From: Nemertoderma westbladi
Lineage: Eukaryota; Animalia; Xenacoelomorpha
Assembly (NCBI GenBank): GCA_032718475.1
Contig: JAUCBJ010003667.1
Span: forward strand, 22,272-86,271
DNA: 64,000 bases
Reading direction: 5' to 3'
A program made the translations under genes and the position numbers. The notes below the pieces were generated by a model. That model did not search any database. It was given only the letters and a program-made list of their open reading frames with translations, and was not told where the DNA came from. Numbering within the stretch: the first letter of the stretch is position 1; each line of letters starts with the position of its first letter. This document shows positions 1 to 43,869 of this stretch, in pieces.

Positions 1-537
1 AATTTATACTCGGCCTCAACACTACGACACCCGATTTTATGGTGAAACTGGTTATTTTCGGCTTTCAATTTCCAGAAAACTATTTAGAGAAAACACATTA
101 GAAGTGGTATCGGGTAACTTTTCATATTTCTTTTATATTCCCTGTATTGCATTGCAATGTACATTATTTTATACTCTACACTACGTGCATATCTTTACCG
201 TACTGCTGACACTGGTTTACTGGTCTCTGTCTCTCTTTCATATATTTACTTTTTTGGGACATATAACAATAATGGCTCTAATTGAGCATGTTGTAGTATT
301 AAACTGAAAGAAAAAACTATCTTAGAATATTGTAAAAAAAATCCGAATTATATTGATTTACATCTCATAATATTGGTTGTGTTTTTTTGTATTTGATTTT
401 GAAAAATATCTAAAGAAATTTTAATATTCAAAATCTGCAGATGAAGATTAATTGTCAAAACAAGAATGAGGGTTTGGCACTATTTTACTTTTTCCTATTT
501 GTGCTCTGTGTAGCAAACTTATCTAATTTTATTTCAG

Positions 538-3500
538 GAATTGACCAAAGTGAAGCCGAATCTTCTTTGGAGTTTGTTCTATACGATTTCACGAGAATAC
601 TTAGTAAGAGCGGTGGTTATGGCTCTTACAATGGTAATCGCTGAAGTCTCTGCTTGCCTGCTATTGGGGAAATTGTTGGAGAGATTTCAGCCAGACAGTG
701 ATATGAGTTTGGGAAAAGCATTGTTGTATACCTTTCTACTTATGGTATGTTATGCAATCCGTTCAAGTGTGGGTCAAAATCTCATGTACCAAGCTATCCT
801 TATAGAATTTAAAATAAGGATTGCATGCCAATGTTTGATATATGATAAGCTACTAGCCATGAATTTGACAACATTGAGTAGGATAACTATTGGTCGTGTT
901 AATAATTTGATTTCGACTGATTGTGAGACCATTTCTACAACCTTACAAAGAGGTGCGGCCCTAGTTATTAGTCCAATTTCTTTAACTATTATTATTGCTG
1001 TTATATACAACTACATTGGTGTTTCATGCTTCTTTGGAGTTTTGGCCATGGTCCTCGTTGTACCACTACAAGTTCTCATTGGCAAGTTTACTGCCAAATT
1101 AAGAGCAAAGGTATCGGAATCAACTGACTACAGAATTAAGTTAACTAATGAAGTTATCATGGGAATGCGCATAATAAAGATGTATGCTTTAGAAAAAGCG
1201 TATTCTAGAATCATATCAGCTTCAAGGAACAATGAAGTAAATAGACTGAAGAAATTATTGTATTGTCAAGGTATTCAAACTAAATTATTCGAAAGATTTA
1301 TTTTAGTAATTGCATTTATATGTTTTGTTTCATACTCGAATTACTTTGGGTATGTTTTACAAGCGTCTGTCGTTTTCCCAGTCCTAGCAATGTTGTTTAT
1401 GCTGAAAAACTTTATTTACTCGTGGGCTGTGATTGGTATCATACGTTGCATTACTTTTGCCGTAGCTGTAAAACGCATTGAGCATTTTCTTCTGACAGAA
1501 GTGCATTCACAAAACCTGGAATCAATAAAGGGCGGCGGTGAGGATACTTCATGTTTATTGGATAAAGCAGATTTGGAATCACATGTAGCGGCAGAGTCAG
1601 GCCTACAACAGGTACAGGTAGTGGAGAAAGAAGATCAATTTGTACTAAATATTAATAATGTTTATGTAAAAAGTAGTTTGTCAGAAGATGAAGGATCAGC
1701 AACCATCCTTGCAGATTTTAGTCTTAGTGTAGAGCAGCCAGGTGAATTAATTTGTGTAGTCGGAGAATTTGGTTCTGGTAAGTCATCTGTACTAAATGTG
1801 ATACTTGGTGAATTACCTTTATACTCTGGAATTGTTAAGTATAATGGGAAACTGAGCTATACACCCCAACAAGGTTGGGTGTTCACTGGCACGATCAGAG
1901 AAAATATTCTATTTGGATCAGAGTATAGTGTGAAACGCTTTAAAAAAGTCATCGATGTGTGTGCTCTTGAAGATGACTTAAAGGCTTTTCCTAATGGAGA
2001 TGAATCTCTAGTTGGTGAAAGGGGTCTTGCATTATCAGGGGGACAAAAAGCTAGAATTTCCCTGGCCAGGGCAGTATATGTTGAAGCCGATATATATCTG
2101 CTGGACGATCCATTAGTCAGCTGTCGATGTACATGTAGCTACTCATTTGTTTGAACATTGCATCCAAAAATTTCTAAGTGATAAAACTGTTATCCTAGTG
2201 ACACATCAAGTACAATTTACGAAGCATGCATCTCGTGTTATTGTCCTTAGCAAAGGGAAAACGATAGCTAGTGGAAAATATGATGATGTGGTTTCCCAGC
2301 TTGAATCCAATGGCATCAACTTTCTATTAATTGATCCAAATTCTCAAACACAGAATGACACGGGTACTGTGGATACTGTTGTATCAGTAACAAATAATGA
2401 GATACATAAAGATGAAATACCTGAGACTCAAACTAAAGTTCAAAAATCCCCAACTTTTTATGGATATTACTTATATTACCTGAGAGCAACTAATATAAAG
2501 ATATTGATATCTGCATTACTCATGACTTTTATTGGTGAGATCATGGCAATTTTTTGTGACCTGTGGTTGGCGCAATGGTCTATCTATAGTCTGAACAATA
2601 GAGGGATGGAAAATATAAGTTATTACAATTTTTCACAGATTACATTTAATAATACAGAAGTTCAATCAGAAGAAAACTCCAGAATGTTTGAAATAATCAT
2701 TTCCAAATTTTTAGATTTGGAAGTCAACAACCACACAATTATTGGTGTGTATGGCTGTCTAATAATACTAACACTATTACTTAGTGCATTAGGTGCTTGT
2801 ATTTTGTTGAAAAGTATTCTTCATGCTGGTTATCGTCTGCACAATGATATGTTTAATCGAGTCCTCAAAGCCAAATGTTATTTTTTTGATACAAACAGTG
2901 TTGGTGATATTTTAAATAAATTCTCCAAGGATATTTGTATTATAGACAGCATGCTGTTAGACAGATTGAATGATATGGTGAATCATAGTGTCAGAATTAT
3001 TTGTATGGTCGCCTTTGTTATGGTAATGAATTTCTGGATGGTAATTGCCGTTGTTCCATTATTTATAATAATGCTAATTGTTAGAGTGTATTACATACGG
3101 ACATCGAAACAAGTAAAAAAACTAGAAGGTTCTTTTAGAACTCCAATTTATCATCACATATCTGTATCTTTGGAAGGGTTGGCAGTTATCCGGGCATTTG
3201 GTGCGAATTCTCGATTTCAAGAGGAATTTTTTAGAAACGTTGACTCACATCTGCGAGTGGTGATTGTTTACAATGGATTAACTTCATGGTTTGGTTTTTT
3301 CAATAGTTTTCTATGTGTTTTCTTCACTACACTTTTAGCATTGTCTGCTGTACTAGCATCTAATATTGATGCAGGAGCTTTAGGTTTATCATTGACTTAT
3401 GCAGCTACACTTTCATTCGCATTTCAATATATGCTAAAACTCTCAACAGAAATTGAAGAGTTAATGACCTCTGTAGGGAGAGTTTATAGTTATACAAAAT

Positions 3501-4411
3501 TGGATCAAGAACGAAATACATTCAGCCATATAAATGATGCTAGAAATCGGATTTCAAATAATCCTTCAATTGAATTCAAAAATGTAAATCTATTTTATGA
3601 CAGTAATCTTCCATCAGTTTTAACTGATGTTTCTTTTCATGTTAAACCTAAAGAAAAAATAGGGATTGTTGGTCGCACTGGTGCTGGAAAGAGTTCCCTT
3701 GTAGCTGCACTTTATCAACTGACTGATACGACTGGTACTATTTTAGTTGGAGGATGTAATACTGCCGATTTGCAATTACAGGATTTACGCAAATCCATGT
3801 CAATAATTCCACAGGATCCAGTGTTGTTTTCTGGTACATTACGCTACAATCTAGATCCATTTACTGAATATTTAGATTCCCAAATTTGGAGTGCCCTGAG
3901 AAACTGTAAATTGTATGACCTTGTGAAAGAACGATCCAATAGTCAACTACCTGCGAAAACTGATGGTTCCTCTGATGACATTCAGAATTCCCATCAAAAT
4001 GATGTCAAATTAACACTGCCTGTAAAAGTACCTTGTGAAGAAGATGATGATTACAATGGACTGCAGTCAAAAGTTGATGAATATGGTTCTAATTACAGTG
4101 TCGGTGAGAGGCAGCTCATTTGCCTTGCCAGGGCGCTTTTAAGGAACAATAAAATTATTGTTGTGGATGAAGCTACTGCCAATGTAGACGCCACTACTGA
4201 TGGGATTATCCAAGAGACCATTCGAGATAAGTTCTCAGATTGCACTATACTTACAATCGCTCATCGTCTAAACACAATTATAGACTCGGATAAGATATTA
4301 GTGATGGATGATGGCCATTTAGTGGAGTTTGACGAACCTTCCAAGCTACTGGCTGATGAGAATACCCGCTTCAGTTCAATGTATAGAGCTACTCATTCAA
4401 TTGTTATGTAA
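538..4411 (+). CDS. ABCC4: ABCC (MRP4-like) ABC transporter, TMD1-NBD1-TMD2-NBD2 in one large exon; +1 frameshift at ~2116; 5' exon(s) not identified
   Basis: ORFs 541-2154 and 2147-4411. NBD1: Walker A GEFGSGKSS, signature LSGGQKARISLARAVY, Walker B IYLLDDP. NBD2: GRTGAGKSS, IIPQDPVLFSGT, SVGERQLICLARALL, DEATANVD, TIAHRL. Removing one base at 2115-2116 restores LDDPLSAVDVHVATHLFEHC. Acceptor tttatttcag ends at 537. Subfamily assignment is by motif similarity only. Confidence 0.88.
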
Positions 4412-4954: not shown

Positions 4955-5563
4955 TGTGATGGGAGCAGAGGATCCCGACCGGTTAATTTTAGTTACGCGT
5001 CAGCATCACCGTGTGAATGGAAAAGAGTTTGTTGTTGTTCCAATATTGTTGATAAAGTCCAAATATAATACACGATATAGAGTATGATAGCACAGTTTAG
5101 TATATGAAGATAATATTGTTATGTACCGGTAAATTGACACACTGTATGATTGGTGACGGAGGTGACGGTACTAAAGTGTCACCGTACTGTCCTAAGTGAC
5201 TGAGATAACTGAATAGGATACAAACACTGACCGGTAATATATTGATTATCTACTCTACTTGTGGCCTTGTTACTTAGCGGATGCATTTTCCTTGTCCCCC
5301 ATTGGCCAATAACCTAATTCTCGGCTCCCACCTCTGTGGGAGTGTCCCCCCCCCCCCCCCCCCCCCACTGCTGTCACGTTCCCTATCCAAGAGGTTTGAC
5401 CTATAACCTCTTTTGTGTGTGGCTCTTTGGGGCCGTGTGTTGTCCCCATTTTATTGGGGGTGATACGAGGTTGATTGTAATCAACCGCGTACTCCCCAAT
5501 ATTGCTTAAAATGCCACTTCCCAACTTTATGGGGTTGGTGGAGCGGAATTGAATCCGCTCACA
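4955..5563 (-). mobile_element. 3' LTR (~609 bp) of a BEL/Pao-type element
   Basis: Minus strand starts TGTGA and ends TCACA (5-bp terminal inverted repeat). It is immediately preceded by a polypurine tract GGGGGGGGGGAG (5564-5575). No second copy occurs in the window. Confidence 0.65.
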
Positions 5564-6351
5564 CTCCCCCCCCCCATGCTATCTTCCCGGTGAGAAGATA
5601 GCATCACCAACGAGTGCGCTTCAATTATGCTGGAAGCCGATCTCCTATTGGGTGTGAGGTGGAGTTCTCTTTCTTGGAGCCGGCTTTCCAGGCCGCTCCC
5701 TATGGGTATGATATTGCTACCCTCTCTTGGTGCAACTTCACCTATGTCGCACCAAGACATCTGGCGTCTCGGGTCGAGACAATTGTGGATTTCTCTCACA
5801 CAATTTTATCTCCCCACTACTCTCTCCACTCTAACTCCGCTCTGACTGACTCTAACTTCTCCACTCTCACCCTGATTCTCCTCTACTTTTCTTCTACCTT
5901 CACTCTAACTGTCGGACCACCTGTCCCTCACTCTGCCTCTTACTCCTCCCCCCCCCCCCCCCCCACCACGCTTGAATTGCACTCGCCTTCTCTCCACGCG
6001 TTCTATACTCGTCTACTATTAACCCATTCACTCCTGACGAGCCTCACCCTCCCCTTCTGTGCCGTCGCACTTAAGAAGTGTGAAGTCGTCTAATGCCTCG
6101 TCCTGTCATAGTCAATTGGTCCCCAGTCCTAGTAGCTAATTGGAAAAGGTTATATGACTATAGTACTTACTTTGATTATATTTGCTATATGACTATATAC
6201 TAATATGATTATTACATACGTACATACTAATTGCACTTTTAATTAAATTTGCACTTAGGATAGGAGTTCGTATTACTTCACATGTGGTGCCTTCCAGGCA
6301 TCCCCACATCTCCCCCTCTAAGTTCTAGTACGCTCCTCCTGACTTTGGGAA

Positions 6352-8949
6352 TCATCTCAGTTCCTTCCCTCTGTCGTCCTCCTCCCTCGGTCGCTTCCTG
6401 GTCGTTGCCGCTCCCTTGTTCTTATCCCCTTTAAGGTTCCTGATCCTTGCCGTCACCTCTCTGCTGATTCCCGTCGTGGACTCCTTGGGCGCTGGTGTGA
6501 TTAGCTCCCGGTATCGCTTCGCAGGTGGCCCCTCCGAATGGCCCTGTTGTTTCCCCCTAGTGGCGTCCCATAGGATCACCTTCATAGCCCGCGGCACATG
6601 CTCCGCCAAGAAATCTCTGAACTCTCCCCAGTTCTGTGGCGTCCACCTGTCTAAATACCTCTGTGTATTTATCACTCCGGCATACGACGCCGCCGTGGAC
6701 ACTTCCTGATAAGTAAATGGAAGTCTACGTTTAATGATTTCCAGGTGAGCCTCCTGGTTGATATTAAAGAAGCCCCACCGGAATTCATGGGCCTTCATCC
6801 GCTGCTGCGTCATGGTGCCGACATCGGCCCATCCTCGAAGATCCTAAACTTCTCCTCGTCGTCCATCCAGTCGCACTGGCATCTGTAGTGCCCCTGGAAG
6901 TTGCACTTAGAACACCGGTTGTGCAACCGCTGACACGCCCCCATCCTATGACTCGACTCGCGGCAGTAGAGGCAACTCGTCCCTTTCTGGAATCGGTACA
7001 GGCAGCTCCTTTCCTGGTGAGTTTGCCTCCTGCAGTAATCGCAGCCGAGTACCAATGCCTCCCGCCCCACGTCGTCTTTCGTCCCAAGCGATCTCCTCGG
7101 TCTATGGAGTCGCTGGTAAGCGAACTACTGGACGTTAGCGTCCCTGTCCACGTCTATCTCCTCGCCTTGCCTGGGCATTGTCTCTCCGAATACTACCCGT
7201 GGTGCCGTTCCCGGTTGCTCGCCCAACCTGATGGTGCTCCCCGCGAAATCCATCGCCGGCTCCTCATGCACCCAGGCCCGCTTGCCGGGTCTATTCCAGA
7301 AGGCTCTCGCCCCGCTGGCCATCACCACTCTCCCGCCAACCCAGTCCGTGTCTGAGTGGCTGATTCTCCCGATGGGCGGTATCTCTCCGAACTCGTCGTC
7401 ATCCTCGTCCTCCTGTGGGAGTGGCTCCAAACCCGGTATCCCGGTGGATCCACTGTGTCCCTTCCCACCTTGGCTCTCGCCCGTGACTCTCCATCCTTCC
7501 AGTTCCCCTGGCCTTCTCTCCGCGAAATCGCCCTCAGCACCCGCTGTCGTCTGCAATCCCGATGTCGACTGTTTCGGTGATCCTACCGTCCACCCCAATT
7601 CTCGCCCTAGAGACTCGCCCGAACTCCCTGATGTCCAGTGTAGATCGTCTAAGGCCGCCTGTTCCTCGAACCCGTTACCCTCTCCTTTAGCTTCCGCCTC
7701 CCTTTCTTCTGCCTCCCTCCTTTCTCGTCTAACGATTTCTTCGAATCGCTTCGCCTCTCGTCTATCCGCCTCTAGCTGCTCCCACCTCTGATATGGCGTA
7801 TCCACCTCCCTGTCTACTAGATATCGGCAGTTATAATATACCGACTCGCCCTTCAGCCCCGGGTGGTCTACCAGACCCTCGAAAGAACCTTTGAAGGCTC
7901 TTCTGTAGTTCAGGGGTGACCCCGATAGCAGGAATGCCGTTGGTTCTCTCTCGACAACCACGGCCATGAATAGGTTTAGCAAACCTATCATTATCCATTC
8001 CTCCTGCAGGATATATCGCTTCTGATATATCTTTATCGCTCCTCTCCGGAATTGATACACCTCTTGCTTCCCCGGTCTCGCTCCCCACTTGAGCGAGTTC
8101 GCCAACTCCGCTCCGTACTCCTCCCTGAATTTACCCCAGTCCATTGGCTTGTGGCATACGAGCCCCATTAGCTGGCCCATCGCCACCGCTCCACAATGGC
8201 CCGCATTCTCTACTAGTCCCAACCCGTCTGGCGCTGTCATAGCCATGTAGACCGTTTGCATATCCAGGAGGTTGGGGGTCTCCGGACCTATGATCGTTGG
8301 GGGTCTCCGGACCTATGATCCTCTACGCATCGTCGCGGATCGCCGATCCCACCTTTATCGTCGACTTCTCTCTTACTAGGCTCTGCACTGCCTTTGGCAA
8401 CCGGTTTAACTTTGGCCCGTTCTTCTTCCCATACATTCCCAGGTCGAACAGGAATATATCCCCATTTGGCGCGGCCAAATGCAGGAGTATGGTTCTGGCC
8501 GATCCCGCCGACCCTCTTCTCGAACCTTCCTCATCTTCCACGGTCCCCTCATCGTCTAGGACCATGTATCCTCCCCTGCTGACGGACTCTACGAACCTCT
8601 TCCAGTCCTTTCTCGGTGGTTCCTTTGGATACTTCGGTATCCCGAACTTCGCCTCGTCTCCCTTTACCACGTAGTGGAAATGCTTGAAGATCGCGTTGTC
8701 TAGCGATGGTGTCCCGTAGGTCCCGACCAGCTGCTGTTCGTGCACCTCCCTGAAATGGTCCTGCAGCGCTCGTGCCTTGTGACCCTTCTTTGACCGCTCA
8801 TAGTATCCCCTCGTCTTCTCTTCTGGATGCCTTTCGGTGAAATCCATCAATATCTCCTTTCCTCCCAACTCCGCCTTTCTCTTTCTAACAAGTTTCTCCA
8901 CCATTTCGAACTCTCCCGATCGCTCACCTATAAGGTGGGGCCTTGCCAA
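6352..8949 (-). pseudogene. Disrupted retroelement accessory ORF: DEDD(y)-type 3'-5' exonuclease + 3x CCHC zinc knuckle (~860 aa reconstructed)
   Basis: ORFs 8323-8949, 7125-8261, 6810-7070 and 6352-6813 join into one frame after reading through TAG 8323-8325, removing one copy of a 25-bp tandem duplication (8271-8320), reading through TAG 7125-7127, and one frameshift near 6830. Exonuclease-like motifs: YMVLDDEG, LLHLAAPNGDIFLFDL, LPKAVQSLVREKSTIKVGSAIRDD, LLDMQ. Knuckles: CDYCRRQTHQERSC, CLYCRESSHRMGAC, CSKCNFQGHYRCQC. Confidence 0.75.
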
Positions 8950-9419
8950 GGCACAATATAAGTGAGTGATGTAGTTAGGATGGTCTGTACGGTCCGATAA
9001 TGGCCTATCTCTCTCTGAATGCTAGGTTATTGCCTAATTTTCCTACTTCTATTTTCTAAAAGTACCAAATTTACTAAATTCCCTAATTTTGTCAGTTACT
9101 TTAATTGTGTTCTGGAATATCTTGCCTACTGTTACCATAATTTATTTAATTTTATTTTTAATATTTATTTTAATCCTACAACTGTGCTATCAGTATCTAC
9201 TAATGGATTATTTCTTCTTTTAATCCATATTCTGGCCTACTCTATGGGCTTGTGCAGTACAGTAGTATGTCTCGTGTGGCCTACACGATCTGTCCTGCTG
9301 TACCCACGTGCCCCCCTCTCGCTACTCACTACTAACTCTACTAACTTTCTAACTAATTTCTACTAACTCTTACTATATACTACATACCCTCCTACCACTA
9401 ACTCTTACTACTAACGGTA

Positions 9420-12400
9420 CTACACGTACCCTCTTACTAACTCCTCTACTAACGTATGTCTCGCGATATCGTTGGGATCTGGGAACATTGCTTCTGGAAG
9501 AATGTTGGTTTTGGGTCTTCCGAGTAGATGGTTAGGTGTAAGAGGCTCCAGATCTGTGGGGTCGTCGTGAATAGGTACGATGGGCCGGTTGTTTAGGGTA
9601 GCCGTGATCTCGCAGAATGTTGAGAGGAGGGTGTCGTGGATTACCCGGGTGTCCCCTAATGCGACGCGCATGGATCGTTTTACCAAGTCGATGAGCTTCT
9701 CCCATACCCCGCTCGTATGGGGTGCTAAGGGTGTTTGGAAGTGCCACTGTATATGGTGTTCCCTCCAGACTTGGGATGTGGTGTCTTCGGTGAACCATCC
9801 TTCGATCGCCTCTCTAAGTTCCCTTTCTCCTCCCACGAAGTTTGTACCATTATCGGAGTACATATGACGACATGTTCCATTGTTTGCTACGAACCGACGC
9901 AGGGCGTTGATAAATGCGTGTTGTGTAAGGTTCACTACGAGGTCTAGGTAGATCGCCCTAGATCTAAGGCATGTAAAGATGGCTCCCCAGCATTTGATGT
10001 TGGATCGTCGCTCCATGACTGTGAATGGTCCGAAACAGTCTACTCCGGTTACGTAGAATGGCGGGGAGTCGGACTGCAGTCGTGTGGCCGGTAGGTCGGC
10101 CATTCTTTGTGTGAGCGGTGGCGCTAGGTATCTTCTGCAAGGAAAACAACGCTTTAACACTTTCCGGATCAGTGGCTGGATGTGGGTGATCCAATATCTT
10201 TGCCGTATATTAGCCATAATCCAGTTCTGTCCACTGTGACACTGTTGGATTAATAGCTTGGCTAGTGTTGACGTTCTGGGCAGAAGCGCTGGGTATTTGA
10301 CTTCGTATTCAACCGGGGCATTTGCCATCCGGGTATTCAGTCGAATCAGTCCGTCTTCTCCCATCATGGGTCTCAATTGATATACTGGGCTGTCCGGTTT
10401 CAAGGTCTTGCCCGCACTGAGTTGTTCCCACTCATCGGGGAAACTTTCTTTCTGGACATATCTAACAATACACTTCTCCGCAATAATGAGTTCTTGTATA
10501 CTTCGTCGAACTACCGGTTTGTTGTCCTTCCACCGCAGGAAGTTGCGAAGAGTTATGACATGGTGGATGAGACGTCTCATTGAGGAGGTTCGCGCTATCA
10601 ATAGTTGTAAAGACGCTGCTGGTTGCGTGATAGTCGCGATATTATAGTGCCTGCCCGAGTCCTTTGCAGGCTCGGTCAGACAACTATAGATCTCCACTGT
10701 GGCGCTTCTATGGACTTTACGGATCTCCTTGTCATCTTCGGAGTATTTTCCGCTATCTAGTTCGGGATCGAATCGGGTGCTCCAGGTTAATTGTAGCTGC
10801 TGTAGGAATTCCGGGCCTGTAAGCCAGAGTTTACTTTTACCGAGTTGTCGTGGGGTGGCGCCTCTGCTCGATAAATCCGCTGGGTTTTCTTTCCTGTTCT
10901 GTTCTCAGCCGGTGCACTGTTTTATCTCAGTGGCTCGGTTCGCTACAAACGTGGTGTGTCACTGTGGTGGTGAATGGAGGTCGGTCACCGAACAGTAACC
11001 CACGGATGTTGCATTCTCTTCAATCTGGCATTTAGGGAGATATGTATAGGTGTCAGTAGTCTTTAATGCCGCATAATGTCCATCCCATGATGGTGCGTTC
11101 TGCATAAAAGACGTCGTTTGGCTTTACGGATCGGGCTACGTCTCCGGTTGGTATGTGTAACTCCGGTGTGTCAAGTCCGATTAGTAGGGTAATTAGGTTC
11201 ACGTCCAACGGCGGGCATCGTAGATCTACATCTTCATGGTCTAGCTGTATGAGGGGTGTGTATTCCGATGATTGTTGGAACTACACTCGGAGATCGGTGT
11301 GTACCAGAGCGTTCTTGATCGTCAGTTTGACCGTCTCATATCCCTTCATAACCCCTTCCATCTTGAGTTGTACCTCCCCGGACTCCACTTCTCTATGGTC
11401 GGTAATAGTTTGTATGGGCCGCTTGCAAGGCTCGTAATCTAGGCCTAGTTGTTCGAGGAAATTCCGGTCGATAATGGTTCCGTCCAACCCGTTGTCAAGG
11501 AATGCGAGCGTTGTTAAAGATTTCCCGACCCCTTGAATTCTTACTGGGATCACTTTGGCGAAGACCATGTAATGGCGGTTTATAAGATTGATCGTAGCCG
11601 AGATATTTGTCATATGTGATGCATCGGTGGAGGTCTTAAACGGATTGGTTTCCCTCCGTTGAATTGTCCGGGTACCTTTAGAGACGTGGTTCGTCTCTCC
11701 TCTCCGTTTGGATTCGATCCGGAACAGGAGTGTGGTAAAATCAAAGTTCGCAGGGATGTGGAGGAGTGTGTGATGACGTAGGTCATTACAGACCGCGCAG
11801 CGCGATCTTTGGTCGCAATCCCGAACATAGTGACCTGTTTCAAGAGACCGGAAGCATCCTCGGTGTTTCATTATCGCCTCGAAGCGTGGGACGAGTTCAG
11901 CAAACTGGAACTTTCTGCAGAATTCCACCTTATGTTTCTCTCCGCAGAAAAGACATAGAAGGGAGGTTGTGGTGCCTTCCCTCTTGGGTGCCCAATTCGC
12001 TAGATAACACACCCATTCCTCGGCTGATGTTGGTTCCTCGTAGTCCTCGTCGTCGGAATCCTCGGCCATGGTGATGGCCATCGTACTCACCGGAGGGGGG
12101 GCGGAATCTCGGTTTCGGAGTGGGTTCCCTGCTCCTGGAGTTGTTCTCTATTCCATCTAACTTGGAGAGACTTTGTTTGGAGAACATCGAGTCATTCATG
12201 GCTTCGGAGATATCGTCTAGGAATGCCGACATTTCGAGGAAACTGGGATCTCGATCTGGGTGTCTGCGTCGGAGATCTATGCATTTATACGCCCACTTGC
12301 TTTGCAGCCATCCGGGGAACTTTCGGGCAATCTGTTGGAGGTTTAGAATGTTGTTTACTTGTTCCTCCTTATTTAATGGTTTTAGAGTGTAGTAGGCATC

Positions 12401-14047
12401 TTTCATGGAATCCGAGAACTCCTGGATATTCTGTGGGTCCCCTAGGGATCCAGCGTCCTGTATCAGTTTCTCGAGAGTTTTATTAATTATAGTTCCGATA
12501 TTTCCGTATCTTTTGTCTAGAGTTTTCCATGCGTCGTAGTACGCTTCATGAGATCCTCCCTCGAAACATTTAATGATTTGACGTGGTTTGTCACCCAGGT
12601 ATTGGGATAAATATACCAGTTTTTGTGCGTCAGTTATATCCGTTGACCCAATCTGAGCGAAGAACCGTTTTTTGAATCCGAGGTAATCGACGGGGTCTCC
12701 CTCGAAGGTGCGGATCTCCATCTTGGGCATAGCCAGGCGGTTTTCCAATGCTCGGATAATGCCGACGTCGTCTGAACTGGAATGACTAGGAGGATTATAG
12801 TTATTAACACTCTCTCCCATGCACGATGGGTCGATGAGAGGTGGAGTTTTAATGATGACGCGGTTACAGATTTGTGGTGTGGATGTAAACGGATTGTTGG
12901 ATCGAGGGGTGGCGTCCCGTTCCGAGTCCTTTTCAGGCTCTTACTTGGGAACGCTCGGTGCCGTGGGGTTGGATGGGAAATAAGGTTCCTCATTCTTAAG
13001 CGTAACTGGTGGGGGATGGAATACCGGTGCTTGTGCCGATAACGTAGACTGTATGGTTGGCGGGAACTCGGGTTTTGGAGGTTTCGCCGCCGGTGGCGTA
13101 AATGACTTCTCTAATTCCCGGACCGGGATTGGTTCATAGTTCTGTTCTATACCCCTTTCCCAGTCCTCGTATAGTTGAAGATCCCGTTCTATGAGTGCGG
13201 CTTCGTAGTCCGCGAGTTTCGCAATATCCGCATTCTTTTTATGGATGAGAATCGTTTGGGCCTCGGCATGTTGTTTACGCATTTCTGCCTCTAGTTTACA
13301 TTGTTCGGCCTCTTCTTCAGCCTGTTGTCCGGCCTATCGTTTACGTTGTTCGGCCTGTTGTTCGGCCTCTCGTTTACGTTGTTCGGCCCGTTGTTTGGCC
13401 TCTCGTTTTTGCATTTCGGCTGCCAATACATCCTGTTCGATCTGCAGTTGGACATATTTGTCTTCCATTCGAGCTTTAAGGGCCAATGCCCTTTGTTCTC
13501 GTAGCTGATCTCGGAGTGGCTGACCCCCTTGAGAACTGCGCGCTGAACCGGATATCTCGCTACTAGCGCTGGAGTGCTGGTGCCTCGAGGACCCTGTTCT
13601 CTTTCGATGGATTGCTGTCCTGGTGCTGGAGGTCCGCACCGATTCTGCGTCTGTCCTTTCAGTTCTCTTATAGTACTGTTCCTCGTAGCCTCTTACGAGG
13701 CTGAGGGTCCTCCGATGTTGTTTGCGGAACTCATCCAGATGTACAACGTGTTCTTCCAGTCTGGGGTAGTTTACCTGATCTGTTGCGGGAATGAGTTCTT
13801 GATATGATTGTATCATCCGTTCGTATTGTTGTAAGATACTTCGGATATTCTGTAGCTGAGTCTGTATCTCGTTGAGGGGGGTTTCGACCCCCCTTAGTTG
13901 TTTCTCTATACGTTGATATGCTCGAGTGACTCCACCTTTGAGAGCGCCTAGTCGACGGGCCATGTTCTTTACGTTCGGTACCTCGTCCATTTCTGAGTCT
14001 GTGGGGCGGTCCATCTCATCGGTGTCGGAGACGTTATTCGTCGTCAT
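9420..14047 (-). mobile_element. Decayed BEL/Pao gag-pol: gag, three Cys/His knuckles, aspartic protease, RNase H C-terminus and integrase; RT deleted, integrase C-terminus missing
   Basis: Gag: MPKMEIRTFEGDPVDYLGFKKRF...QKLVYL; knuckles CLFCGEKH, CFRSLETGH, CAVCNDLRHHTLLH. Protease: LAFLDNG...LLIGLD...TIMGWT. RNase H end: FVANR...ENPADLSSRG...LWLTGPEFL. Integrase: MADLP, GVDCFGP, SDNGTNFVG, GVWEKLI, LTPNHLL. In-frame stops at 13334, 12941, 11281 and a frameshift at ~12095. Confidence 0.92.
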
Positions 14048-14457
14048 TCTAGCGCCTCGTTGATAGCTAGATATGCGATATCGTAATATAGTTCTTCGTA
14101 GGTCTTGTATTCAGCCTGGACTACCCGAACGGTAATCCTGAATCGTCCAACGTTTGTTCATTGTACTTCGACTTCGACGTGCCAGATTCCTGGCTCAACT
14201 TGGATTATATCAATGGGTGTGATCGATACTTCCATTCCATTCCCTCCACGACTCTCTATATGTGATCTGCTGACTACGAGTTTTTTAATTTGAGTTTGTA
14301 ATTTGATCGAACCACGGCTTTGTCTTAAATCAAATACCAGAGTTTCCTCGTAGTGGGTGCTGGGTAAGCATGGAGAGAGTTTGAAGAGTATTGTAGGATT
14401 CCCAACTTCCACCAGTTGAAGTTGGCCGCGTCTTATTCTCAATTTTGTTGCCATTAT

Positions 14458-14468
14458 TCCTGACACCA
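14458..14468 (-). promoter_or_regulatory. Primer-binding site, tRNA-Leu-like
   Basis: Minus-strand TGGTGTCAGGA directly follows ...CCCCCA and is complementary to a tRNA-Leu-type 3' end (…TCCTGACACCA). Confidence 0.6.
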
Positions 14469-15880
14469 TGGGGGAAAACGCCGATGCTGGAGGCGGAACT
14501 TTTCAGACCACGGAATCCCAGCCAGTCACCGGATATTGGTAGAGGAGAAGGAATACTTTCTTGAATGCAAGATTGCGGTTGAGAAAAGTTTCATTGGTTG
14601 GATATAATCTTTAATGTAACTTCCCTACGGTTGAATCTAATCTCACTGAACCTTGATTGAGAATAAGTTGGGCTTCCCCAAACCAATATACACCAAATAT
14701 TCACAATAATATAACACGACAATATAAATCCCTACAGTACATTATTTAATTACCCACTGTTCGCTCAGATTTTAACCTAACTAATGTTCCCCAATTTTCC
14801 CTCGGTCCTAGTCTCGGTACCATAGTGTCGGTGTCGGTCGACCCTGTTGCGTGTCCGTCCCACCCTTCCCAAACCCCGAAGGGATCGGTCATCAGGCAAG
14901 CGGTACAGCTTGGCTAAGGGTCGGTCAAGTCGGTAGACCCGGTTGCGTGTCTGTCCCACCCTTCCCAAACCCCGAAGGGATCGGTCATCAGGAAAGCGGT
15001 ACGGCTTGGCTAGGGGTCTGTCGTGTCGGTGGACCCGTTTGCATGTCCGTCCCACCCTTCCCGAACCCCGAAGGGATCGGTCATCAGGAAAGCGGTACGG
15101 CTTGGCTACGGGTCCGTCGGTTCATCACAGGGACCCAACCACCTAAGCTTTCCGAGTCCTTATTCAGGCTCGTAGTCGCTTCGGTAGCCGAGAAGCTGCT
15201 CCGAACAGTCGGTAGGCCAGTGGAGTCCGGTCCTTTGTCTTTCGACCCTGTTGCGTGTCCGTCCCGCCCTTCCCAAACCCCGAAGGGATCGGTCATCAGG
15301 AAAGCGGTACGGCTTGGTAAGGGGTCTGTCAGCCCGTCGTGAGCCCCAACGGTTGGTGGTTTTCCGAGTCCTTATTCAGGCTCGTACTAACGCCGGTCGT
15401 GGAACCCACTCCAGGAAGGCAGTCCTCGTTGAACCCTTCCTCCGTTAGTCAGTCGACCCGTCGCAAGTCCCTGGCGTATGTCGGCAGGCTTTCCGAGTCC
15501 TTATTCAGGCTCGTACTAACTGCCGGCGACCAGGGACCGCTAAAGGTCTGTCTGTCGGTTCCCGTCGCAAATCCCTGACACAAGCAGCAGACTTTCCGAG
15601 TCCTTATTCAGGCTCGTAATAACTGCTGTTGGCCAGGGACCGCTAAGGGCAGTCCTTGTCCTTTAGACCTAGCGAGTTACCAAATCCACCTCTACAGGCA
15701 GCAGGAAGTTGGCTAGGCCTAATAGTAATCAGGGAAACCTGAATACTGCTTAACTTTGCCTCCCACCCCTGGCCCTTAAATACATGAAATGAGTCCCGTA
15801 CCCCGTAAGTCGCCCCAATATTCGCCCATAAATCGCCCCCAGTCCATTGAATGTGCCCAAATCCCATGTTCCCGCACCCA
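14469..15880 (-). mobile_element. Putative 5' LTR (~1.4 kb) with internal structured repeats
   Basis: Minus strand TGGG…CCCA termini, abutting the PBS. TATA-like TATTTAA at ~15780 and ATTAAA at ~14610. The outer boundary is inferred from the terminal IR and the switch to REV3L sequence. Confidence 0.55.
14843..15618. repeat. Two interleaved repeat families in the LTR: four ~96-bp units and four 26-bp units
   Basis: tcatcag cores at 14889, 14985, 15081, 15293. tttccgagtccttattcaggctcgta at 15149, 15361, 15490, 15593. Confidence 0.9.
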
Positions 15881-15934
15881 GTAGTGATATCGGAATATTC
15901 ATTTAAAATAAATCCAAAAAATATTCAACTCGCG

Positions 15935-18932
15935 TTAAGAAAAGTTGAAATACCGCAAACAACCGAGAATAGGATCGGTTGCAGGGTCGGCTGTCAGATC
16001 CCTCTGAGGTCGACACATTAACTCCAAACTCATCAGTGTCAAGTGCTGATTTTCGTGTTGACTTTCAAATGCCATGTCCGAATCCTTTTGATTGGCAAAC
16101 TTACACCCAAACAGGTTATCTGGGGTGTTTTGTATTCCTGATGTGTCAGTTTTTCGCTTAGGTTTTGGAGTCGCTTGCATCTCACGTTGCCGTTGCAGTT
16201 GGTTAACCAGAATATGTAGCAATGAGTTTCGATCTCGTCTCTTCACCAGCTGAGTGAATGATCCGCCATCATGAGTGGATAGCGGGGTAATACCATCAAC
16301 TACACCATGTAAATGTGCCAATCCATTGTTACCAGGTGTACTACAGCTCTGGGACTGCAGGAAGGCTTTGGAAGGATGTAAAAAACTTTCCGATAAGTCA
16401 TAAAATGTGTCATCATGAGTGTTGCATATTAGTGAATTATTGTTAGATGGCGTATTAGATAAATGATGACTCACTGGATTGTAAGAGAAGGGATTAGAGG
16501 GAGATAAACTTATTGAGTTGTTGGATAATGGATTAGAAGATGGTAAACTAATTGGAGGACTTACTAAATTACTAGATAATGAATGAGTTATTGGAATATT
16601 AGACAAAGGATTGGATGAAGAATGACTTATTGAATTGTTGGATAACAGATTGGACAAAGTTCGACTTATTGTATTATTAGACAACGGGTTGGAAGATGGT
16701 ATATTTGTAGGAAGTTGACCACAAGTTAGAGGAGAATCAGAACCTTCATAACTCGAGAACAAATCCCCACCAGTTGTGTTATTGAATGACGGCTTATTTT
16801 CATCTACTTTGCCAGCTGGTGTGTTACAAGCCATTTCGCTTTGACTTTGAGTGACACCTGTTGTCTTACACATGTTACTCTGAGTGACAGCTGGTGTGCT
16901 ACACGTGATACCTTGAGTAACTCCCTTTGAATTTTTGCAATCCAACATTATCTTGTTGAACACCCACGCATAAACTGTTGAATATGACGGTGGAGGTTCA
17001 ATGGGTGATATAATAGTGACATCATGAGAGTTTATATGAGTGGTAGGAAACTCTTCGGGATTTTCCCTTAATGGTGGTGGGAAAACTGGTTCGATAATAA
17101 TGACCTCGTTAATGTTATTATCATTGTCGTTTGTCATAATTAGCTGTTACAAAACTTAAATTATAAATGATTTATGAAGGTAAAGTGATTGTGTTAGAAA
17201 TTATATCCTGCTGTATCCTCATTTCTTACCATCAGTTAGGAACTTCTACTTTTTGAAGATTTTATGAAAAATCTTTAACAATAAATGTCTATTCTCAAAA
17301 GGCGCAGGATATCGACGTCAATTGAAATAAATATAATTAATAAAATACACAAAATCTCTTAAATGTATAAAATATTATTATAAATACAAAAGTATATAAA
17401 TATTAAAAGGACTTGTTTCACAACTCAATGATTAGGCCTATTATAAATTCATTAATTTATGAAATTCTAAAATTAAAATTAAAATACAATACAATTATTA
17501 ATATAATTATTTATTAATAATGTAATAAGATAATAATTGATTCATTTTAAATACACGAATATTAATTAACATTGGTTTATTTCATATGAATCAATTATTA
17601 TCTTAATACATTAGTATAATAATAATAATATATACCGGTACATATCATTGCAGGTGGATATTTGCTGAGATTATTTGATAGTTTTGTAGGAATTGACTTG
17701 ATTACTATTAAATTAAGAGTAACTGTAATGAAAAAAAAGTATTTGCAATAAATTTAATCCCATATTTAAATTTAAATTTATTTCAAATTATTTTATAATT
17801 TAATATAATATTATTATGATATAAAAATCATTCAGACACTAATATCTGACTCATTTCCATAACTTCGTCATCAACATTTATATCAGTATCAAGAGGATCA
17901 CAACCCAAAATAGAATCTTTATCAATATTATAATTCAGATAAACCAACATCGATAGCTTCTGGCTCCTCATCTAAGCCGCCGACACTAATTATATTGTTA
18001 CTTAGATCAGCAGTTTCATTAAACTCATCTAGATGCAAATCTAACTGACTACACACCGTCCACGCCAATTCGCTTTCGGTGACGTCACTTCCGCTAAGAG
18101 GGGAAGTCAGTTCAGAGTTCTCAAACATTAAAGGGCTAGTTAAAGTGGAGTCTTTCTTTAGCAGAACGTCGATAAAGCTATCGAATACATCATTGCGGTT
18201 TTCTGTAGGAAGTTTTCTTACAAAAAATTATCAAGATCTTGTCGATAAGGGGAGTCGATCTGTGATGGTTTCCCAGCCAACCGAAGTCTATAGCCTTCTC
18301 CTCCTCCCAGAGGTAAGCCAACCCAGGAATCATTCCTCCACCCTCCACTGCCTCCCTGTTCAATATATCATATATCATATCATATTCGTACTGTCATACC
18401 GTATAAATTAAAATCAATAAAAAATTGCAACAAAAATGGAATGTGCGATTCGTGGGGTTGAAACTGCATCCCCATGACTAGGCTACTCCAGACAGCCAGA
18501 TAACAACACCTCTGCAAGTTTACCTATAAGAGTTGGCCGGTATAAATAAATCTTAAGGAATCTGGTCTCCCCACTGTGGTAGCCGTAGAACGGAGTTCCA
18601 GCAACTCGAGTTATCTTGAAAACGTGTTGGGTAGGTGTGCCGCAATCAGAGCTCCTACCGAGGGCGACATCCATGGATTTATCGACGGCGTCAGCGAACT
18701 GGTTGAGATCGATGTCTCGCGAGTACACGGTGTAGAGATACGGGAAGACGCCATGTACGTGAAGGCAGGTCTTTGAACCGGTCAGCCGGTTGCCGACGGA
18801 CCGAATATTCGTATAATGGGAACTTTAGCAACGCGGCCGCATCTGAATTCGGATGTAACAACGTCTAGGCCAGGTACCAGGAGATGGAATGTCCAAGCAG
18901 AAATCGGCGTCGACAATACGCATAGAAAACAT
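15935..18932 (-). pseudogene. REV3L: REV3L (DNA polymerase zeta catalytic subunit), disrupted 5'/middle fragment lacking the polymerase domain
   Basis: ATG at 18932: MFSMRIVDADF…KVPIIRIFG…KTCLHVHGVFPYLY…QHVFKITRVAGTPFYGYH…FLKIYLYRP…FQPHESHIPFLLQFFIDFNLYGM…DILNR…PGLAYLWEEEK. ORF 15935-17137 has DTSGIQNTPDNLFGCKF and HENQHLTLMSLELMCRPQRDLTADPATDPI, matching REV3L just upstream of the exonuclease-like/polymerase region. Several frameshifting insertions and a deletion are present. Confidence 0.9.
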
Positions 18933-22833: not shown

Positions 22834-25110
22834 GTGGGGCCTTCGCGCAGCACGTGAAATGAGTTAATGCTAAGTATCAACTCGAAAGGATTATAAAAAC
22901 ATAGGAGAAGATTTTCCCGGAAAACGTTAACCCTCTAGCGGGAGACTGGGTAACTGAAGAAGGAAGGATTAGTTTCCCTACAAAGCCACAGCCTATGGTC
23001 TATTACATATCTACCAAGTTTCCGATTGACGGATCATAAATAACGAAATGTTGGAAGGTTTTCACTTTCATACATTTAGCCCTCTAGCGGCATATTAAAG
23101 AACTACGGATCGATCACCTTCCTCACAAAGACGAGGCATGTGGTCTAGTACATACCGGTACTGTATATTCCAAAATTCAGCTTAAATAGATTAAGATCAA
23201 GGAATTCGCAAAGGTTATCACTTTCCTACATTTCGCCCTCTAGCGGCAGACTCGAAAACTCCGGACCGATTACTGTCCACACAAAGACTTAGGATGTCTT
23301 CTAGTACATATATGACAAGTTTCAGCGTAATCAGATCATAAACAACTAAATGGAAGAATAATTTCACATTCGGGACATTTCGCCCTCTAGCGGCAGACTG
23401 GAGAACTGCAGACAGATTAGCCTCCTTTGAAATTTACAGCTAATGGTCTAGTACATACTTCCCAAGTTTCAGCTTAAACGGATTAAAAGCAAAGAAATGG
23501 GTGGCCATTTAATGTTTAGACATGTGGCCCTCTAGCGGGAGACTGGAAAACTTCGGACCGATTACAATCCACACAAAGACTCAGGATGTCATCTAGTACA
23601 TATATGACAAGTTTCAGCGTAATCAGATCATAAACAACTAAATGGAAGAATAATTTCACATTCGGGACATTTCGCCCTCTAGCGGCAGACTGGAGAACTG
23701 CAGACAGATTAGCCTCCTTTGAAATTTACAGCTAATGGTCTAGTACATACTTCCCAAGTTTCAGCTTAAACGGATTAAAAGCAAAGAAATGGGTGGCCAT
23801 TTAATGTTTAGACATGTGGCCCTCTAGCGGGAGACCATTGCACTGATGGTGTCTGAAAGTCTCTCAAAAATCTCAACTTTTGCTTATATTGATACCTACA
23901 AATTTTCAACTTGGCAGCTTTAAATCCGACAAAGTTATTAGCATGTCAAAATCGTAACGACGACGACAACGACGACGACGACAACGACGACGACGACAAC
24001 GACGACGACGACGACGACGACAACTATTTGCATAAATTGACCCACCCCCTAACAGTGTCAATTCGCTAAGGCTCCGCCAACTTCGTGGCTCGCCCCAAGC
24101 GGCATATTAAAGAACTACGGATCGATCACCTTCCTCACAAAGACGAGGCATGTGGTCTAGTACATACCGGTACTGTATATTCCAAAATTCAGCTTAAATA
24201 GATTAAGATCAAGGAATTCGCAAAGGTTATCACTTTCCTACATTTCGCCCTCTAGCGGCAGACTCGAAAACTCCGGACCGATTACTGTCCACACAAAGAC
24301 TTAGGATGTCTTCTAGTACATATATGACAAGTTTCAGCGTAATCAGATCATAAACAACTAAATGGAAGAATAATTTCACATTCGGGACATTTCGCCCTCT
24401 AGCGGCAGACTGGAGAACTGCAGACAGATTAGCCTCCTTTGAAATTTACAGCTAATGGTCTAGTACATACTTCCCAAGTTTCAGCTTAAACGGATTAAAA
24501 GCAAAGAAATGGGTGGCCATTTAATGTTTAGACATGTGGCCCTCTAGCGGGAGACTGGAAAACTTCGGACCGATTACAATCCACACAAAGACTCAGGATG
24601 TCATCTAGTACATATATGACAAGTTTCAGCGTAATCAGATCATAAACAACTAAATGGAAGAATAATTTCACATTCGGGACATTTCGCCCTCTAGCGGCAG
24701 ACTGGAGAACTGCAGACAGATTAGCCTCCTTTGAAATTTACAGCTAATGGTCTAGTACATACTTCCCAAGTTTCAGCTTAAACGGATTAAAAGCAAAGAA
24801 ATGGGTGGCCATTTAATGTTTAGACATGTGGCCCTCTAGCGGGAGACCATTGCACTGATGGTGTCTGAAAGTCTCTCAAAAATCTCAACTTTTGCTTATA
24901 TTGATACCTACAAATTTTCAACTTGGCAGCTTTAAATCCGACAAAGTTATTAGCATGTCAAAATCGTAACGACGACGACAACGACGACGACGACAACGAC
25001 GACGACGACAACGACGACGACGACGACGACGACAACTATTTGCATAAATTGACCCACCCCCTAACAGTGTCAATTCGCTAAGGCTCCGCCAACTTCGTGG
25101 CTCGCCCCAC
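22834..25110 (+). mobile_element. Non-autonomous element with ~146-bp core tandem repeats, (GAC)n microsatellite and short terminal IR (HINE/pearl-like); internally duplicated
   Basis: Begins GTGGGGCCTTCGCGCAGCACG and ends CGTGGCTCGCCCCAC. ccctctagcgg recurs every ~145-156 bp. (GAC/AAC)n at ~23956-24023 and ~24968-25035. 23086-24097 is repeated at 24098-25109. Confidence 0.65.
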
Positions 25111-26735
25111 AGCTAGTCATTATTCATTCAGACATACCGTATCTGTAGCATAGACGTATACCAGACCACAGTACGTCTGTACGTAGTATGTAATAAAGTA
25201 GAACGTAGTACATAAATACAAGGACTAGGCCTACACTGAAGTAGTCTTTAATATTCTTTCTATAATTCATATTGTAACATTTGAGTAATTTCAAAAAATG
25301 TACACTTTACTTGACAACAAAAATTTACATGCAGTGTTTCTTAAGTAGTTGTTTCGTAATGTTACACTTTTGGAATAAAACAACGTACCTACTGTACTTG
25401 TTGCATTTGTCTTTATTAAGGTTTTCCGTCTCTGTATCCTTATTTTCATTTCACCCACCCACAACTTTCGTTCGTTTACAGGTTTAAGTAAACTCGGATT
25501 TGTGCAGCTGCAGTATTATAGATAACCGAATAAACTACAGGTACTGTACAGTATAACAGGCTGATTTTATGTTTTATACCAGTCAGCCCGGTGCGGCTTT
25601 GAAGAGCCGGTGGAAGATTTTTCACCCGGCGCAGAATTTTGCATTGCACAGAGCCGGCGCAGGATTTTTGCACCTGGCATGGGCGTTGGTTTGCACAGAG
25701 CCGGCGCAGGATTTTTTGCACCCGGCGTGGTTTTGCACAGAGCCGGCGCAGGTGGCAGGATTTTTTGCACCCGGCGTGGTTTTGCACAGAGCCGGCGCAG
25801 GATTTTTTGCACCCGGCGTGGTTTTGCTCAGAGCCGGCGCAGGATTTTTGGCACCCGGCGCCGCGTTCGGCGCAGAAAATAAAACTTTTCAATAGGGCCC
25901 ACTGCATGCTGGCATGTATGTATTGCATTATATTGTATTATACGAACAGTAGCCTATCAGTCAAAATCTACATGAATCAAAGTTCTGTCAATCATTTCAT
26001 ACTTGACCACAGAACCAACTGACCAAGGCCGCTAGTATTGACACTGTCAGACTGTAGCGGCGCATATTTTGGTGCCGTCTGGCCGTTGCATTTGCTTGCA
26101 ATTAATTATATTTCTGAATACAAGTGTAGTGTATTGCTGTAGTCAGGTAGTGTATACTACACTGGTATACGCGTTTTGTATGCGTTTCTCACTCGTTTGT
26201 ACTCTTTTGTACTATTTTTGTACTCTTTTGTACTATTTTTGCACTTTATTGTACTCTTTTGTACTCTTTTGTACTATATTGTACTATTTTGTATTTTTTT
26301 GTACTTTTTTGTACAGATTCGTCGGACTGCCATTTAAATGAGCAGGTTACAGGAGGCGTGTTGGGGGAACGAAAACAATAAACGAAAAGTTAACAGATGT
26401 TACAAGATTATTCAAGTTACCGGTACTTTTTAGTCGCAATAATTTTTATTGTCCGTTTAAATCCTTTTTTGTCCATTTTTTTTATTTTTTATGTCCTCCA
26501 AAAATCTAATGTTAGGTTCCATGCTACCGCGGTTTCTCTACTGCTGTTCTCTCAGGCTATCAGTACCGGTATTAGTATATATACCACTATTTTGCTGTAT
26601 TGTATGTACAGAGATGTAGGTATAAAGCAGGTATTTTTGTATTTTAGTACCGGTACCGGCACCGGTACTGCTGTAGGCCTACTGTGTGTAGCCTACCATT
26701 TAAATACGGTACTGGTAGGCCTAACGGCTGACCGG

Positions 26736-43800: not shown

Positions 43801-43869
43801 GTACTGTAATCAAGGTACACTTCATAAAGTAGTAGGCCTACCATTCGGCCACGCGTAAATCCAATCACG

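What the first reader, a model, noticed from the sequence alone, without database searches (positions are those of the whole stretch)
6352..8949. BEL/Pao-associated accessory gene: DEDD 3'-5' exonuclease fused to three CCHC knuckles and a WGF-containing domain
Seen: four GC-rich minus-strand ORFs lie between the integrase and the PPT/3' LTR, where an env-like ORF would sit. They merge into one ~860-aa frame after repairing two TAG stops, one exact 25-bp tandem duplication and one frameshift. The N-terminal half has WRN/RNase D-like exonuclease features (ExoI VLDDEG; LLHLA…FLFDL; LP…L…IKVG.AIRDD; LLDMQ), but the ExoIII equivalent reads YILQE rather than YxxxD. Next come a charged linker, three CX2CX4HX4C knuckles and FE.WADVGTMTQQR…WGFF. 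Established: DEDDy exonuclease capture has been reported for some LTR retroelements (e.g. bdelloid rotifer). Inference: this exonuclease + RNA-binding-knuckle fusion may be an undescribed retroelement module that trims RNA/cDNA ends or counters host small-RNA silencing.
Basis: partly seen in the sequence, partly recalled or inferred. Interest (0 to 1): 0.85.

Follow-up and report, generated by a model that had tools for sequence, protein, structure and literature searches.

The report
Retrotransposon third gene, likely RNA exonuclease
A broken copy of a many-copy, protein-coding gene lies behind the remains of a BEL/Pao retrotransposon and encodes three zinc knuckles behind a likely RNA-trimming nuclease domain; if it belongs to that retrotransposon, which is likely but unproven, it would extend a kind of accessory gene known from rotifer elements to this group.

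Summary
The anatomy is real: four minus-strand reading frames (8904-6352), two stops, a 25-base duplication, a frame change and three CX2CX4HX4C knuckles. Public DNA runs show a many-copy family whose variable sites fall on third codon positions (15 of 17), so it is a selected coding gene. It has no relative in any protein or contig search. The exonuclease call is moderately supported: the first frame aligns to ExoI-ExoII of DEDDy profiles (E 0.003, rank 1 of 61 frames), but ExoIII is atypical and the fold is untested. The tie to BEL/Pao is unproven: the integrase is cut at about 9454, the two LTR-like ends do not match, there is no target-site duplication, and synonymous base use differs from gag-pol. 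DEDDy third genes are published for rotifer elements, and exonuclease plus several CCHC fingers for trypanosome RNase D. This scan noted similar genes in gypsy elements of other genomes. Verdict: new variant of a known kind, interest 0.5.

The parts
8323..8904 (-). Frame A: about 110 residues of unknown kind, then ExoI-like (8562-8545) to ExoII-like (8358-8329) motifs; ends at a stop
   Evidence: hhalign to a 48-sequence DEDDy profile E 0.003, 74 columns
8271..8320 (-). Exact 25-base tandem duplication (a break)
7125..8312 (-). Frame B: putative second half of the exonuclease domain (LLDMQ 8270, WGARP 8087, Y-x3-E 8015-8001), charged stretch, long acidic/glycine-rich linker; ends at a stop
   Evidence: no significant profile match on its own (E 0.51 and 0.21); the stop is not shared by the contigs listed at 7127
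6810..7124 (-). Frame C: three CX2CX4HX4C zinc knuckles at 7043, 6974, 6914
6352..6843 (-). Frame D: domain of no known family holding WGFF (6777-6766), then a basic tail; entered by a frame change near 6831
   Evidence: no relatives or fold; other copies differ in length near 6831
8928..8978 (-).
   Evidence: read from the sequence; untested; consensus recalled
9022..9454 (-). Non-coding spacer with short tandem repeats; its upper edge is a junction with the cut integrase
   Evidence: joints that go back within 9397-9453 and loose ends at 9454
9420..10904 (-). Integrase frame (zinc-binding and catalytic core), cut at about 9454
   Evidence: Integrase_H2C2 E 1.3e-5; motifs at 10040, 9854, 9701, 9536
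11281..14110 (-). BEL/Pao-type gag and protease in several broken frames; no reverse transcriptase found between protease and integrase
   Evidence: DUF1759 E 2.6e-14, Asp_protease_2 E 2e-4; knuckles at 11955-11758
14826..15961 (-). 5'-LTR-like end (TG...CA) with 96- and 103-base tandem repeats; primer-site-like TGG at 14822
   Evidence: depth falls to flank level beyond about 15961
6309..6319 (-). Polypurine tract followed by TG at 6308, directly behind frame D
5564..5575 (-). Second polypurine tract followed by TG at 5563
4955..5563 (-). 3'-LTR-like end (TG...CA, short inverted termini, AATAAA at 5455) with no matching partner in the window

Best explanation
This is a dead copy of a many-copy coding gene that likely served as the third gene of a BEL/Pao-type LTR retrotransposon family and is predicted to encode an RNase D/WRN-like 3'-5' exonuclease whose three zinc knuckles would hold single-stranded RNA for trimming. 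Shown: the gene is many-copy, coding and selected; it has three knuckles; it lies on the same strand as, and behind, BEL-type gag, protease and integrase, in front of a polypurine tract. Partly shown: ExoI and ExoII of a DEDDy domain. Inferred: expression from its own, perhaps spliced, RNA; an RNA substrate (from the knuckles, as in trypanosome RNase D); activity with glutamate in place of the last aspartate. For the target I commit to 3' ends of short single-stranded RNAs, most likely host silencing RNAs or the element's own RNA fragments, with the element gaining relief from silencing; nothing here tests that step. Rough odds by step: DEDDy-like fold 0.75; part of a BEL/Pao element 0.65; active nuclease given the fold 0.6.
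For: Thousands of contigs at mostly 80-99% likeness lie across the whole gene in three runs (7414, 4735, 4928 laid on 6240-9840; 58 in the fourth). Depth is high from about 4955 to 15961 and 20-180 outside (the tool warns that depth is no copy number). Of 37 listed difference places in frames A-D, 22 are third positions (p 0.001); of the 17 that vary among copies, 15 (p 4e-6). Two stops and the frame change are not shared by the listed contigs. Frame A ranks 1, 1 and 3 of 61 frames against three DEDDy profiles; best score 24.4, next 16.5, 100 shuffles 12.0 +/- 2.2, maximum 22.0; the alignment puts its D-x-E on ExoI and its IRDD aspartate on ExoII. No hydrophobic window above 1.6, so it is not envelope-like. 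Precedents: PMC5408684 (DEDDy third genes), PMC7797062 (fingers raise RNA binding and cleavage).
Against: No homologue was found and Pfam is blank. HMMER with the same profiles gives frame A only E 1.4 and 5.6 among 252 frames; hhalign probability is 10%. Frame B does not align significantly, and ExoIII reads Y-x3-E about 24 residues after the tryptophan, against 12 with Y-x3-D in alignment A1. The integrase is cut at the junction, the ends do not match, there is no target-site duplication, and four-fold-site base use differs from gag-protease-integrase (p 4e-13). No listed contig bridges integrase to the gene.
Confidence: 0.45

Rival explanations
1. The gene is an exonuclease-knuckle gene of a different repeat (another LTR family or a non-autonomous element). 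The window is a composite in which that repeat was nested into, or recombined with, a BEL/Pao remnant at about 9454, or was mis-joined in assembly.
For: Ends unlike and no target-site duplication. Contigs that carry the right flank from 15962 have 334, 3116 and 3057 letters of other DNA in front (X1 record 8, X2 record 15, X4 record 32), and one that carries the left flank to 4955 runs on for 130 letters (X2 record 9), as if two separate insertion sites were joined. G over C on the coding strand starts at the junction. Two X4 contigs leave the window's sequence at 9454. The window holds near-identical 4.9-kb and 1-kb duplications, which may be assembly artefacts.
Against: Same strand and expected order; depth is of the same order over gag, integrase and this gene; no second gag or pol lies between 9454 and 4955; the copy has another internal loss (no reverse transcriptase), so a second deletion at 9454 is a simple reading. 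Table 5 shows 15 of 103 joints, so a joint between the two flanks may be hidden.
Confidence: 0.25
2. It is a third gene with a DEDDy-like fold but no catalysis: an RNA-binding protein that shields or sequesters RNA, in the manner of inactive DEDD derivatives such as EXD1 or Maelstrom.
For: ExoIII is atypical. PMC5408684 (discussion) notes inactive DEDD derivatives that keep RNA binding in the piRNA pathway.
Against: Three acidic residues sit at the ExoI and ExoII places, and the fourth candidate is still acidic; rotifer third genes also change one D to E (PMC5408684). Whether this residue is shared by other copies could not be read: 540 rows are not shown.
Confidence: 0.15
3. The gene is a knuckle-bearing nucleic-acid-binding protein of unknown fold, and the exonuclease motifs are a chance likeness.
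For: Blank Pfam, PDB and 1.8-billion-protein searches; weak HMMER scores; rank only 3 of 61 against the RNase D-type profile.
Against: Score above all 100 shuffles, with five motifs in the right order and the acids on the right columns; the KWGARP stretch of frame B falls on the conserved W of the profile, though at E 0.51.
Confidence: 0.12
4. It is a host gene or processed pseudogene that happens to lie inside a repeat.
For: Exonuclease-knuckle proteins exist as cellular genes (PMC7797062).
Against: Many diverged copies; synonymous base use unlike the host ABC-transporter gene; a polypurine tract, not a poly(A) tail, follows.
Confidence: 0.03

Closest known systems
DEDDy exonuclease ORF3 of bdelloid rotifer LTR retrotransposons Juno and Vesta, and of Athena/Terminon retroelements (PMC5408684: abstract to discussion and figure legends read; PMC6431247, PMC5718144: passages)
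   Same: Extra gene in the env position, RNase D-like motifs, one catalytic D changed to E, no membrane segment, function untested.
   Different: The four rotifer clades named are Juno, Vesta, TelKA and Mag, not BEL/Pao; no knuckle array or further domain is described for their ORF3; there the motif is DEED, here the last acid differs. Sequence kinship could not be tested because those proteins were not in hand.
Trypanosoma brucei RNase D, TbRND (PMC7797062: abstract, passages, section 13; PDB 7c42-7c4c seen)
   Same: 3'-5' exonuclease domain followed by a row of CCHC fingers; the fingers raise RNA binding and cleavage of small RNAs.
   Different: A cellular enzyme with four fingers 28 residues from the nuclease; here three knuckles lie about 320 residues behind the putative ExoIII, followed by an extra domain. 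No sequence match between frame A and any PDB chain.
WRN / EXD2 / mut-7 (Nibbler) exonuclease domains
   Same: Order of motifs from ExoI to ExoII, including the KVG stretch before the ExoII aspartate.
   Different: About 22% identity over 74 columns only; longer spacing in the second half; Y-x3-E.
Dada DNA transposons of Laccaria and Ectocarpus (PMC3706591: passages)
   Same: A mobile element that carries a DEDDy domain.
   Different: The domain is inserted in a DDE transposase and keeps all four acids.
BEL/Pao retrotransposons, Belpaoviridae (PMC8742986: whole text; PMC3118150: passages)
   Same: gag with DUF1759, protease before integrase, polypurine tract, TG...CA ends.
   Different: The only third gene these texts name is env-like; this copy lacks reverse transcriptase and a matching LTR pair.

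Membership tests
DEDDy (RNase D/WRN-like) exonucleases | ExoI D-x-E | tested here: met
   aligned to the D-T-E columns by hhalign, E 0.003, probability 10%; weak by HMMER
DEDDy (RNase D/WRN-like) exonucleases | ExoII aspartate after the K-V-G strand | tested here: met
   same alignment; also with the stand-alone profile, E 0.021
DEDDy (RNase D/WRN-like) exonucleases | ExoIII Y-x3-D | tested here: not met
   candidate reads Y-x3-E at 8015-8001; frame B has no significant alignment. So it is called DEDDy-like, not filed as a member.
DEDDy (RNase D/WRN-like) exonucleases | Family profile over its cut-off (Pfam PF01612) | tested here: not met
   no Pfam family for frames A and B
DEDDy (RNase D/WRN-like) exonucleases | DnaQ-like fold | not tested
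   no unbroken natural copy or relative was found to fold; the domain was not modelled
DEDDy (RNase D/WRN-like) exonucleases | Two-metal 3'-5' nuclease activity | not testable with these tools
   needs an assay
CCHC zinc knuckles | C-x2-C-x4-H-x4-C | tested here: met
   3 of 3 matches in the window lie in frame C; 0 of 200 shuffles reach 3; Pfam zf-CCHC did not score
BEL/Pao (Belpaoviridae), the neighbouring gag-pol remnant | BEL-type gag and nucleocapsid knuckles | tested here: met
   DUF1759 E 2.6e-14 (its link to BEL/Pao gag is recalled); knuckles 11955-11758
BEL/Pao (Belpaoviridae), the neighbouring gag-pol remnant | pol order protease, RT, RNase H, integrase | tested here: not met
   protease and integrase in that order, but no RT or RNase H family in the frames scanned and only about 0.4 kb between them: a deleted copy
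BEL/Pao (Belpaoviridae), the neighbouring gag-pol remnant | Two matching LTRs and a target-site duplication | tested here: not met
BEL/Pao (Belpaoviridae), the neighbouring gag-pol remnant | Primer-binding site for tRNA-Arg or tRNA-Gly | tested here: inconclusive
   TGG at 14822, three bases after the CA end; no host tRNA in hand
BEL/Pao (Belpaoviridae), the neighbouring gag-pol remnant | Polypurine tract before the 3' LTR | tested here: met
   two candidates, 6319-6309 and 5575-5564
BEL/Pao (Belpaoviridae), the neighbouring gag-pol remnant | RT phylogeny | not testable with these tools
   no RT in this copy and no genome held
ORF3 accessory genes of LTR retrotransposons | Lies in one element with pol, between matching LTRs, in several copies | tested here: inconclusive
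   position and strand fit; no listed contig bridges the 9454 junction
ORF3 accessory genes of LTR retrotransposons | Kept as a coding gene among copies | tested here: met
   15 of 17 variable places are third positions

The most novel reading that the evidence does not exclude
A high-copy BEL/Pao family carries its own small-RNA nuclease: an exonuclease fused to three RNA-gripping knuckles and an orphan domain, built like trypanosome RNase D but independently, that destroys or trims host silencing RNAs. It would be a retrotransposon-encoded enzymatic suppressor of small-RNA defence and the first non-envelope third gene in this group.
Probability: 0.15. Interest if true: 0.85.

Novelty: new variant of a known kind. 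Interest (0 to 1): 0.5.

Why it matters
What the exonuclease third genes of retrotransposons do has been open since they were described in rotifers (PMC5408684 reports no activity test). A version with three RNA-binding knuckles points to an RNA substrate and gives a protein to assay. If the link holds, the capture extends to BEL/Pao, for which the texts read name only env-like third genes. The gene has no relative among 1.8 billion protein representatives (frame A), so it also shows coding repeat content that annotation misses.

Tried and rejected
No genome is held, so intact copies and dN/dS could not be sought. Homologue searches all blank: frames B+C, 275-875 aa; frame A against PDB (19) and 1.84 billion representatives; frame D, longer proteins; frame C, longer proteins; frame B in metagenome and viral contigs; integrase in metagenome contigs; earlier findings by sequence and nearby. 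Atlas with frame D: recognition 1436, under the 2300 mark, only unnamed clusters at 0.94; taken as no result. Single-sequence model of frame D: pLDDT 42, no PDB match at E 0.001; meaningless. No RNA holder listed; no evidence either way on expression. Rfam: two chance microRNA matches far under their cut-offs. Long terminal inverted repeats around 4955-9424 were considered from two short arms and rejected (score 39, 3 of 200 shuffles reach it). A direct-repeat pair 5564-6340 / 8950-9500 was rejected likewise (41, 6 of 200). An envelope reading was rejected: highest 19-residue hydropathy 1.59. Viral contigs gave no extra DEDDy sequences for the profile. Literature searches listed no paper whose title or opening abstract describes an exonuclease third gene in BEL/Pao; the library lacks most subscription journals and Repbase. 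PMC6681497 and PMC12451622 (passages) were not relevant. No supplements were opened; those of PMC3118150 hold BEL/Pao element sequences and may bear on novelty.

Full report
Observation. The minus strand between 8904 and 6352 holds four consecutive reading frames, A to D, in DNA of 50-58% G+C against 33-36% in the left flank. They are separated by a stop at 8325-8323, an exact 25-base duplication at 8271-8320, a stop at 7127-7125 and a frame change near 6831. Frame C holds three C-x2-C-x4-H-x4-C knuckles, the only ones in the six frames of the window; 0 of 200 shuffles gave more than one. Base use at four-fold sites is alike in A-D (p 0.45) and unlike both the BEL frames (p 4e-13) and the host ABC-transporter gene (62% against 28% G+C). 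The four frames are therefore one broken gene.

Copies and selection. No genome is held. Four public DNA runs (three samples, three studies; one may be the source of the window) were laid as contigs. Summed depth is in the thousands to tens of thousands from about 4955 to 15961 in three runs and 20-180 outside; the tool warns that this is no copy number, but 7414, 4735, 4928 and 58 contigs at mostly 80-99% likeness lie on 6240-9840. The table of differences shows 40 of 580 places; I dropped 3 outside the gene. Of the other 37, 22 are third codon positions (p 0.001). Splitting at a threshold of my choice (under 90% of depth in run X1), 15 of 17 places that vary among copies are third positions (p 4e-6), against 7 of 20 places where nearly all copies differ from the window. 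At 7127 and 6352 all listed depth in all four runs differs from the window (37/38/30/6 and 38/26/28/5 contigs), and near 6831 length differences and loose ends are listed in all four. So these breaks belong to this copy, and the gene may end a little further down. The tables show no row for the stop at 8323 or the duplication, so these were not tested.

Is it an exonuclease? Pfam, PDB and the large protein collections give nothing. I built three profiles from 48 bacterial members of PF01612 (19 stand-alone WRN/EXD2-like and other, 29 mostly RNase D); 15 of the stand-alone ones find WRN, EXD2 and mut-7 best in the PDB. With HMMER, frame A ranks 1 and 2 of 252 frames at E 1.4 and 5.6, and is not among the first 12 rows for the RNase D profile. 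With hhalign it ranks 1, 1 and 3 of 61 frames of 100 residues or more; the best score is 24.4 (next 16.5; E 0.003; probability 10%), above all 100 shuffles (12.0 +/- 2.2, maximum 22.0) and the reversed sequence (15.3). The alignment spans 74 columns and places the D-x-E on ExoI and the IRDD aspartate on ExoII. Frame B ranks 22, 8 and 23 of 61; only its W-x2-R-P stretch falls on the expected column (E 0.51). The ExoIII candidate is Y-x3-E, about 24 residues after that tryptophan against 12 in alignment A1. The fold was not modelled. I put the DEDDy-like fold at about 0.75 and do not file the protein as a family member. Frame D matches nothing.

Does it belong to the BEL/Pao element? Upstream on the same strand lie gag (DUF1759, E 2.6e-14), a protease and an integrase, with no reverse transcriptase between them. 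The gene is followed at once by a polypurine tract and TG (6319-6308); a second such pair is at 5575-5563. That is the place of a third gene. Against a simple reading: the integrase frame passes into short tandem repeats at about 9454, where two contigs of X4 go on with other DNA; the ends 14826-15961 and 4955-5563 are no more alike than shuffles; there is no target-site duplication; contigs that carry either flank run on into DNA that is not the other flank, as far as the cut tables show; and G over C on the coding strand begins at the junction. No listed contig is long enough to bridge integrase and gene. The locus is either one element with two deletions and one foreign end, or a join of two repeats. 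I put the BEL/Pao link at about 0.65.

How it likely works. By analogy with trypanosome RNase D, where CCHC fingers raise RNA binding and cleavage (PMC7797062, abstract, passages and section 13), the knuckles would hold single-stranded RNA and feed its 3' end to the nuclease. Selection among many copies says that the protein helped the element. Relief from small-RNA silencing is my choice of benefit; trimming of the element's own RNA or primer is as open. An inactive RNA-binding form is the main rival on mechanism.

What is known. DEDDy third genes are described in rotifer Juno and Vesta elements and in Terminons, with DEDD changed to DEED and no activity test (PMC5408684, parts 1-3 of 5 and figure legends; PMC6431247 and PMC5718144, passages). 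Dada DNA transposons carry a DEDDy domain too (PMC3706591, passages). For BEL/Pao, the ICTV profile (PMC8742986, whole text) and the survey PMC3118150 (passages) name only env-like third genes. Seven searches listed no paper on an exonuclease third gene in BEL/Pao; the library is incomplete and no supplements were read. Two earlier notes of this scan (e1-9570289, e1-7470659; unchecked) describe Rrp6-like exonuclease-knuckle third genes in gypsy elements of other genomes.

Verdict. New variant of a known kind; interest 0.5.

Noticed in passing
window 514-4411 (+): Full-size ABC transporter (two membrane and two ATPase domains) with no apparent intron, split into two overlapping frames at 2117-2154: a real frameshift or an assembly error.
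   Followed up: partly
window 43828-48158 (+): A second LTR retrotransposon with RT, RNase H and integrase in one 1074-aa frame and a weak DUF7041 gag frame before it; gypsy-like by these families.
   Followed up: partly
window 38567-43497 and 59070-64000; 23079-25113: A 4.9-kb duplication at 99.9% and a 1-kb tandem duplication at 99.7%; recent duplications or assembly artefacts.
   Followed up: no
window about 53200-59000: Long array of a 39-base unit with open frames of 295-418 codons.
   Followed up: no
window 14833-15646: Tandem repeats of 96 and 103 bases in the LTR-like end; a short motif recurs at least five times there and again near 12918-12940 inside gag. No Rfam family.
   Followed up: partly
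window 15935-17146 (-): A 403-codon serine/asparagine-rich frame with no Pfam family runs into the repeat's end at 15961, as if interrupted.
   Followed up: partly
window 18483-18824 (-): Frame with a POL3_N domain (E 2e-20): part of a host B-family DNA polymerase gene.
   Followed up: no
window 4983-5457: Other copies of the LTR-like end skip 278 or 472 bases here, so this end comes in several lengths.
   Followed up: no
window 8324-9059, 6585-7080, 8569-8642: Single contigs skip these parts of the gene: internally deleted copies exist.
   Followed up: no
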